Below, one piece after another: positions 33,958-34,162 of a stretch of 64,000 nt of DNA (positions within the stretch are counted from its first letter, which is position 1; each line of letters starts with the position of its first letter). The DNA is taken from NCBI GenBank assembly GCA_019058245.1, contig JAHPZJ010000014.1, positions 51,085 to 115,084 of the forward strand. The letters are read 5' to 3'. Below the pieces are notes generated by a model, which saw only the letters and a list, made by a program, of their open reading frames with translations, did not search any database and was not told the DNA's origin. A program made the translations under genes and the position numbers. The stretch comes from Promethearchaeota archaeon (GTDB taxonomy: Archaea > Asgardarchaeota > Lokiarchaeia > Sigyniarchaeales > SOKP01).

Positions 33958-34162
33958 TGGGCCATCGGGGATTTTCATGCTCAACCTAACCAATCGAGCC
34001 AATTTGAACCCCGGATTTCCTGTATAGAAGATAATCCCTCCTAAATCTCAGGTTTTTACTTTCTCGGACATCATTTTTTTGTGCGTCCGATGGTCATTTA
34101 TAAGACCTGCGCTTGTTGACCAAGCATACAAAACCTCGTTAACCAAGCTAAGCAAATGGCCC
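33958..34162 (-). tRNA. tRNA-Ile (UAU) with four introns
   Basis: Removing 34139-34115, 34097-34054, 34046-34017 and 34002-33972 gives a canonical 75-nt cloverleaf with anticodon loop CUUAUAA and discriminator A73. Confidence 0.85.

What the first reader, a model, noticed from the sequence alone, without database searches (positions are those of the whole stretch)
33958..34162. tRNA gene with four introns
Seen (minus strand): introns at 21/22 (34139-34115, helix UGGU/GUCA), 38/39 (34097-34054, UUAU/GUAA, relaxed motif), 45/46 (34046-34017, CCUG/CAGG) and 59/60 (34002-33972, UUCA/UGAA). Removing 130 of 205 nt gives GGGCCAU-UU-GCUU-AGCUUGGUUA-AAGC-G-CAGGU-CUUAUAA-ACCUG-AGAUC-CGGGG-UUCAAAU-CCCCG-AUGGCCC-A. 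Known: multi-intron tRNAs in Thermoproteales carry up to three introns, as far as I recall. Inference: the 45/46 motif uses CCUG of the anticodon stem, so splicing probably needs ordered refolding; standard tools would miss this gene.
Basis: partly seen in the sequence, partly recalled or inferred. Interest (0 to 1): 0.85.

Follow-up and report, generated by a model that had tools for sequence, protein, structure and literature searches.

The report
Four-intron Asgard tRNA-Ile(UAU) gene
This is a real isoleucine tRNA gene of a Loki-type Asgard archaeon cut by four introns, a number already published for other Asgard tRNAs; the part I found unreported is that its anticodon intron is never lost and carries a conserved ACA at a fixed distance, which may direct the anticodon modification needed to read AUA without the usual archaeal enzyme TiaS.

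Summary
Confirmed: four bulge-helix-bulge introns at the stated coordinates; splicing gives a 75-nt tRNA-Ile(UAU), missed by ARAGORN and Rfam. Orthologues show empty sites for three introns; 13 of 89 family genes have four. Four introns is not new: Freyarchaeia tRNAs with four are published (PMC11291895) and a 2026 preprint reports up to five. New here: the anticodon intron is never absent, slid from 37/38 to 38/39 in most of this family, and carries an unpaired ACA at intron base 15-16 in eight Asgard families (87/89 here; 0/86 control introns), including cultured MK-D1 and L. ossiferum. The spacing fits H/ACA or T-arm/CCA docking of Cbf5, suggesting intron-dependent pseudouridine at U34, as in yeast (inferred, about 30%). 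No RNA evidence obtained.

The parts
33958..34162 (-). pre-tRNA-Ile(UAU) gene, five exons and four introns; discriminator A73, CCA not encoded
34140..34162 (-). exon 1 (positions 1-21)
34115..34139 (-). intron 1, 25 nt, 21/22, strict motif; its outer helix competes with the D-stem; optional in relatives
34098..34114 (-). exon 2 (22-38)
34100..34102 (-). anticodon UAU (U34 = 34102)
   Evidence: invariant in orthologues
34054..34097 (-). intron 2, 44 nt, 38/39, relaxed motif; never absent in any Ile(UAU) gene found
34092..34095 (-). GACC of intron 2, predicted to pair with exon GGUC (29-32; 34107-34104), displaying the anticodon in a hairpin loop and freeing positions 40-43
   Evidence: prediction; little covariation
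34064..34090 (-). 7-bp stem of intron 2 (34090-34084 with 34070-34064) with A-rich loop
34080..34082 (-). conserved unpaired ACA at intron base 16 (15 in most other lineages)
34047..34053 (-). exon 3 (39-45), 7 nt
34017..34046 (-). intron 3, 30 nt, 45/46; central helix uses anticodon-stem strand 40-43; optional
34003..34016 (-). exon 4 (46-59)
33972..34002 (-). intron 4, 31 nt, 59/60, T-stem as outer helix; optional
33958..33971 (-). exon 5 (60-73)
34186..34193 (-). TATA-box-like TTTATAAT about 24-31 nt upstream, kept in many orthologues (probable promoter; inference)

Best explanation
A functional, single-copy tRNA-Ile(UAU) gene of a Lokiarchaeia (Promethearchaeia) archaeon. It is transcribed as one precursor, the four introns are cut by the two-subunit EndA endonuclease at bulge-helix-bulge motifs and the exons are ligated (shown by homology and comparative evidence, not by RNA). 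It reads AUA because the lineage has lost TiaS and tRNA-Ile2(CAU) (shown by genome searches). Three introns (21/22, 45/46, 59/60; a fifth site in the D-loop in relatives) are come-and-go passengers; the anticodon intron is a kept working part. While it is present its GACC pairs with exon 29-32, which opens the anticodon stem, lets the 45/46 motif form, and puts the anticodon in a hairpin loop; it is therefore most likely removed late (predicted). I infer that it is kept because U34 must be modified, or shielded from Elp3-type modification, in the intron-containing precursor so that AUG is not misread; the conserved ACA 14-15 nt from the splice site is most likely a docking mark for that enzyme, my best guess being Cbf5 making pseudouridine 34 (about 30% for this specific step).
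For: Gene and introns. TiaS domain PF08489 in 0/128 genomes of the family, none in the rest of the class, 0/3, 0/19 and 0/11 in five further families, but 176 of 379 Asgard genomes overall, controls positive. Ile(UAU) genes found in the TiaS-less families; Ile2(CAU)-like genes seen only in TiaS-positive genomes, about 9 of 20 without an anticodon intron (read by eye); none among the ~27 tRNAs recovered from G000 or among the tRNA matches read from the closed G050/G055 genomes. AUA is 3.7% of codons. Two EndA paralogues, one with and one without the catalytic K/H. Order: helix probability of intron 3 is 0.75 with intron 2 and 0.02 without; mean 0.47 vs 0.05 over 24 genes. ACA at base 15-16: 87/89 in this family (5.4 expected), 10/10, 4/4, 3/3, 2/2, 1/1, 1/1 and 8/12 in seven other families; 0/28, 0/23, 0/35 in control introns. 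Cbf5 present in 35/35, Elp3 in 5/5. Precedents: yeast Pus1 makes the Ile(UAU) pseudouridines only with the intron, which also prevents ncm5U34 (PMC11408192); H/ACA targets lie 14-16 nt from ACA and Cbf5 has guide-free activity using ACA or CCA (PMC11077068, PMC7991803).
Against: No RNA evidence for splicing, order or modification. G000 is only 76% complete. Folding predictions give the helices of introns 1 and 2 near-zero probability in every intermediate, so the energy model does not capture enzyme-assisted folding and the order result is soft (it also weakens at 20 C: 0.12 vs 0.00). The alternative hairpin is strong in this family (3.75 of 4 pairs) but only 2.6-3.0 in four other families and shows almost no compensatory change. 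ACA is absent from the four sampled families f4-f7 (0/6) although they have Cbf5. No K-turn or upper stem of a classic H/ACA guide is present, and the ACA tracks the splice site rather than one uridine (15-17 nt from U36). Genomes are related, so counts overstate independence.
Confidence: 0.75

Rival explanations
1. Same gene and splicing, but the anticodon intron serves a different enzyme or purpose: a TruA/Pus1-like synthase or another modifier reads the ACA loop, or the intron simply shields U34 from Elp3 and thiolation until late, leaving a U34 that reads AUA only, as in Mycoplasma mobile.
For: A TruA-family gene is in 4 of 5 genomes tested (not found in G000, 76% complete); Elp3 is present; eukaryotes use Pus1, not Cbf5; Cbf5 presence does not separate ACA-plus from ACA-minus families.
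Against: Does not explain why the triplet is ACA at the H/ACA spacing, after a 7-bp stem plus one free base as in an acceptor stem plus CCA.
Confidence: 0.3
2. All four introns are neutral passengers; the anticodon intron is just the oldest, kept because exact loss is rare, and ACA is a structural or processing feature (splicing, ligation or turnover of the excised circle) with no link to decoding.
For: Asgard tRNA introns are gained repeatedly with no known function; ACA spacing follows the splice site after the 37/38 to 38/39 slide; the same first intron bases also form the inner splice helix in several families.
Against: The other three introns are absent from many relatives while this one never is; Ile2(CAU) genes often lack an anticodon intron; bases flanking ACA vary freely while ACA does not; other introns, cut by the same enzyme, lack it.
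Confidence: 0.25
3. Three introns rather than four: introns 2 and 3 and the 7-nt exon between them are one 74-nt intron; or the locus is a decayed pseudogene.
For: A blind profile alignment preferred this parse.
Against: That product has no anticodon stem; 38 loci carry the 7-nt exon joined directly to exon 4; exons are conserved while intron loops vary; it is the only AUA reader found.
Confidence: 0.02

Closest known systems
Multi-intron tRNA genes of Freyarchaeia/Jordiarchaeia/Atabeyarchaeia (Valentin-Alvarado 2024, PMC11291895; bioRxiv 10.64898/2026.10.13.758758)
   Same: Four bulge-helix-bulge introns at non-canonical sites, patchy gain and loss among relatives, missed by standard annotation, two-subunit EndA.
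   Different: This is Lokiarchaeia, a class those papers do not single out (no mention of Loki, Ile or TiaS in the preprint); their four-intron Ile gene is Ile2(CAU).
tRNA-Ile3(UAU) of Nanoarchaeum equitans, Korarchaeum cryptofilum and ARMAN-2/4/5 (PMC8450103, PMC6000648, PMC3239211)
   Same: UAU anticodon in place of Ile2(CAU), TiaS lost; intron present where described (Korarchaeum, ARMAN-2 at 37/38).
   Different: Here it is a trait of a whole class and several other Asgard families; intron at 38/39 in this family; conserved ACA not described for them and not tested here.
Eukaryotic pre-tRNA-Ile(UAU): yeast (Pus1, intron-dependent pseudouridines 34/36) and the three-intron gene of Cyanidioschyzon merolae (PMC11408192, PMC3728597, PMC9602550)
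   Same: Same anticodon, retained anticodon intron; in the alga D-arm and T-loop introns are removed before the anticodon intron.
   Different: Modification is unshown here; enzyme unknown; common descent not tested, and several TiaS-positive Asgard families exist, so convergence is open.
Archaeal intron-linked anticodon modification: box C/D guide in the pre-tRNA-Trp intron; H/ACA sR115 acting on pre-tRNA-Tyr U35 (PMC11408192, PMC11077068)
   Same: An anticodon intron takes part in modifying the anticodon.
   Different: No C/D boxes or K-turn seen here; an ACA mark inside the intron acting on its own tRNA is not described in the papers searched.

Membership tests
Archaeal BHB tRNA introns | 4-bp central helix with 3-nt bulges at each splice site | tested here: met
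   4/4 pairs for all four; 86/87 for the 38/39 site in relatives
Archaeal BHB tRNA introns | Exact removal restores a cloverleaf, matching intron-free orthologues | tested here: met
Archaeal BHB tRNA introns | Splicing endonuclease able to cut relaxed, non-canonical sites is encoded | tested here: met
   two EndA paralogues, catalytic and structural type; substrate range inferred from PMC4090602
Archaeal BHB tRNA introns | Spliced RNA observed | not testable with these tools
   no RNA run was listed
tRNA-Ile3(UAU) decoding system | UAU anticodon on an Ile-type body with A73 | tested here: met
   charging by IleRS not tested
tRNA-Ile3(UAU) decoding system | TiaS absent | tested here: met
   not found in G000 (76% complete), 128 family genomes or the closed G050/G055 with PF08489
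tRNA-Ile3(UAU) decoding system | tRNA-Ile2(CAU) absent | tested here: met
   only initiator and elongator Met found in G050/G055, only elongator Met in G000; recovered sets are incomplete
Box H/ACA guide RNA | Unpaired ACA 3' of a stem, 14-16 nt from the target position | tested here: met
   ACA after a 7-bp stem, 14-15 nt from the splice site, 13 nt from the base pairing with C32
Box H/ACA guide RNA | Bipartite pocket with upper stem and K-turn or K-loop | tested here: not met
   only one pocket-like strand; no upper stem or tandem GA motif by inspection; so not filed as an H/ACA guide
Intron-dependent anticodon pseudouridylation (yeast type) | Pseudouridine at 34/36 formed only on the intron-containing precursor | not testable with these tools
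   needs biochemistry

The most novel reading that the evidence does not exclude
The anticodon intron of Asgard tRNA-Ile(UAU) is a built-in modification module: by pairing with exon 29-32 and presenting a 7-bp stem, one free base and ACA, it mimics the T-arm/acceptor/CCA (or H/ACA) shape so that Cbf5 converts U34, in the U55-equivalent position, to pseudouridine. This would be an intron-encoded, self-acting ACA mark that let several Asgard lineages drop TiaS, and a prokaryotic forerunner or parallel of the eukaryotic intron-dependent route to AUA decoding.
Probability: 0.3. Interest if true: 0.85.

Novelty: new variant of a known kind. Interest (0 to 1): 0.5.

Why it matters
The intron count itself only extends a published Asgard trait to Lokiarchaeia and shows again that these genes are missed by annotation. 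The retained anticodon intron matters more: how TiaS-less archaea keep a U34 tRNA from reading AUG, and where the eukaryotic intron-dependent solution came from, are open questions. A conserved ACA at fixed spacing gives a precise, mutable handle, and the same feature is in the single-intron genes of the two cultured Lokiarchaeia (MK-D1 and L. ossiferum), so it can be tested now.

Tried and rejected
ARAGORN and Rfam on the window: nothing. 37/38 placement of intron 2 rejected. Merged 74-nt intron rejected. A CAU anticodon from the CAT inside intron 2 rejected: wrong context, and not conserved. TIGR03280 was the wrong family for TiaS and is ignored. First energy comparison used mis-indexed pairs and was redone. 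Loose phylum-wide UAU pattern gave background outside this family because other lineages have the intron at 37/38 or extra introns; replaced. Metagenome scan for non-Asgard Ile(UAU) genes gave six matches, none useful, so ACA in Korarchaeum or DPANN is untested. Cbf5 presence does not discriminate ACA-plus from ACA-minus lineages. A classic trans-acting H/ACA guide role of the excised intron was considered and not supported (no upper stem, K-turn or second pocket strand). In one search, several 45/46-type introns were placed one base off by my pattern, which lowers their helix scores. Paper searches for TiaS with Asgard gave 0 papers and for an ACA box in a tRNA intron nothing relevant; most subscription papers are not covered.

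Full report
Observation. The minus-strand stretch 34162-33958 lies between a 226-aa and a 139-aa gene, just downstream of SepSecS. Removing the four stated segments (25, 44, 30, 31 nt) leaves 75 nt that ARAGORN calls tRNA-Ile(tat); the unspliced gene is invisible to ARAGORN and Rfam, and stays invisible in most partly spliced forms. Each junction has a 4-bp central helix with 3-nt bulges; introns 1 and 4 have both flanking helices, intron 3 has 1-bp flanks, intron 2 lacks an outer helix.

Comparative proof. The flanking 226-aa gene was used to fetch the locus from relatives. Exons are nearly identical while introns come and go. The exact spliced junction occurs as DNA in 38 loci for 45/46, 44 for 59/60, one for 21/22 (further variants lack this intron too) and none for the anticodon intron. 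Among 89 distinct genes of this family 3 have one intron, 30 two, 43 three and 13 four; a fifth site exists in the D-loop, but no five-intron gene was seen. The anticodon intron sits at 38/39 in 87 family genes (86 with a full helix) and at 37/38 in other lineages and in a few genes of this family, so it has slid by one base. A blind profile scan of the genome recovered about 27 tRNA genes, most with one or two introns of about 30 nt, Val(UAC) with three; the Ile(UAU) gene is the most interrupted.

Host. Named database records with the same gene are mostly Promethearchaeota/Promethearchaeia. Two same-order genomes have exactly the chromosome sizes of Promethearchaeum syntrophicum MK-D1 and Ca. 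Lokiarchaeum ossiferum. The host is therefore a Lokiarchaeia MAG, 76% complete.

Is four new? That preprint does not mention Loki, Ile or TiaS.

Order of splicing. In the predicted ensemble, intron 2's GACC pairs with exon 29-32 (probability about 1.0; -13.7 against -9.9 kcal/mol for the splice fold with anticodon stem), which frees 40-43: the 45/46 helix has probability 0.75 with intron 2 present and 0.02 after its removal; over 24 genes 0.47 against 0.05, higher in 15 and equal in the rest. This predicts 45/46 first and the anticodon intron late, as measured for the three-intron Ile(UAU) of C. merolae. It is a soft result: the same model gives introns 1 and 2 almost no splice helix.

Decoding. 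The TiaS domain is not found in G000, in 128 family genomes, in the rest of the class, or in five other Asgard families, but is in 176 of 379 Asgard genomes. Ile(UAU) genes were found in the TiaS-less families; Ile2(CAU)-like genes appeared only in TiaS-positive genomes, about 9 of 20 without an anticodon intron (by eye). MK-D1 and L. ossiferum yield initiator Met, elongator Met, Ile(GAU) and Ile(UAU), no Ile2. AUA makes up 3.7% of codons, so this gene is needed. The strategy is known from Nanoarchaeum, Korarchaeum and ARMAN; a search for TiaS with Asgard found no paper, but eight earlier notes of this scan report it on other DNA, which I reached independently and which adds no evidence.

The anticodon intron. 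No Ile(UAU) gene without it was found in any fetched locus. It carries an unpaired ACA starting at base 15 or 16: 87 of 89 in this family (5.4 expected from shuffles), 10/10, 4/4, 3/3, 2/2 in four families outside the class, and 8/12, 1/1, 1/1 in three more when searches are counted by hand; the patterns that found them did not contain ACA. It is absent from four small families of this class (0/6). Controls: 0 of 28 other tRNA introns of G000, 0 of 23 and 0 of 35 optional introns of the same gene. In this family ACA follows a 7-bp stem and one free base, and the G that can pair with C32 lies 13 nt upstream in 94 of 95; this register beats slid registers in every family tested, clearly here (3.75 of 4 pairs) and modestly elsewhere (2.6-3.7). 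That is the spacing of T-stem, acceptor stem, discriminator and CCA, with U34 in the place of U55 (my inference from standard tRNA numbering), and of the 14-16 nt H/ACA rule. Archaeal Cbf5 binds either ACA or CCA and can act without a guide; Cbf5 and Elp3 are encoded. In yeast the Ile(UAU) intron is required for pseudouridines 34/36 and prevents Elp-type modification. I therefore put intron-dependent U34 control at about 60% and Cbf5 via ACA at about 30%. Against: no K-turn or upper stem, little covariation, ACA tracks the splice site, ACA-less families exist, kin are not independent, and there is no RNA evidence. Neither the papers searched nor the scan's notes mention this motif.

Verdict. 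The UAU/TiaS link and, above all, the retained, ACA-marked anticodon intron raise it to 0.5, because they give a concrete experiment in cultured Asgard archaea.

Noticed in passing
window 31439-31595 (+): Probable tRNA-Sec (anticodon UCA, encoded CCA) with apparent D-arm and T-loop introns, directly upstream of SepSecS (31629-32996); missed by ARAGORN and Rfam.
   Followed up: no
window 42456-42586 (+): tRNA-Ser(GGA) with two introns (17 nt in the anticodon loop, 30 nt in the T-loop), also missed by standard tools.
   Followed up: partly
L003, L004, L077 (same locus in relatives): In L003 and L004 the tRNA-Ile(UAU) gene is inverted relative to its neighbours and has a different acceptor stem (also in L077); at least five acceptor-stem variants occur at this locus in the family, one starting GCUCCC (L024, L027).
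   Followed up: no
G000 genome, tRNA genes: Most tRNA introns are 29-32 nt long (23 of 31 parsed) despite unrelated sequences, hinting at a length rule or a common source.
   Followed up: partly
L259 and one search matches: The elongator tRNA-Met intron keeps a GGGUCRGA-like motif across several Asgard classes, another conserved anticodon-loop intron in the Ile/Met box.
   Followed up: no
G062, G063, G064, G296, G297, G155 cbf5 genes: cbf5 is split into two matches near residue 70 (near 40 in G155), consistent with the known cbf5 mRNA intron type or a frameshift.
   Followed up: no
L198 and L214 (G047): One genome holds two different Ile(UAU) genes, one with and one without the ACA; may be bin contamination.
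   Followed up: no
window 34304-36159 (+): Two ~140-aa helical proteins and a 301-aa protein next to the tRNA have no good Pfam match for the first; earlier scan notes treat them as a longin-TPR module.
   Followed up: no
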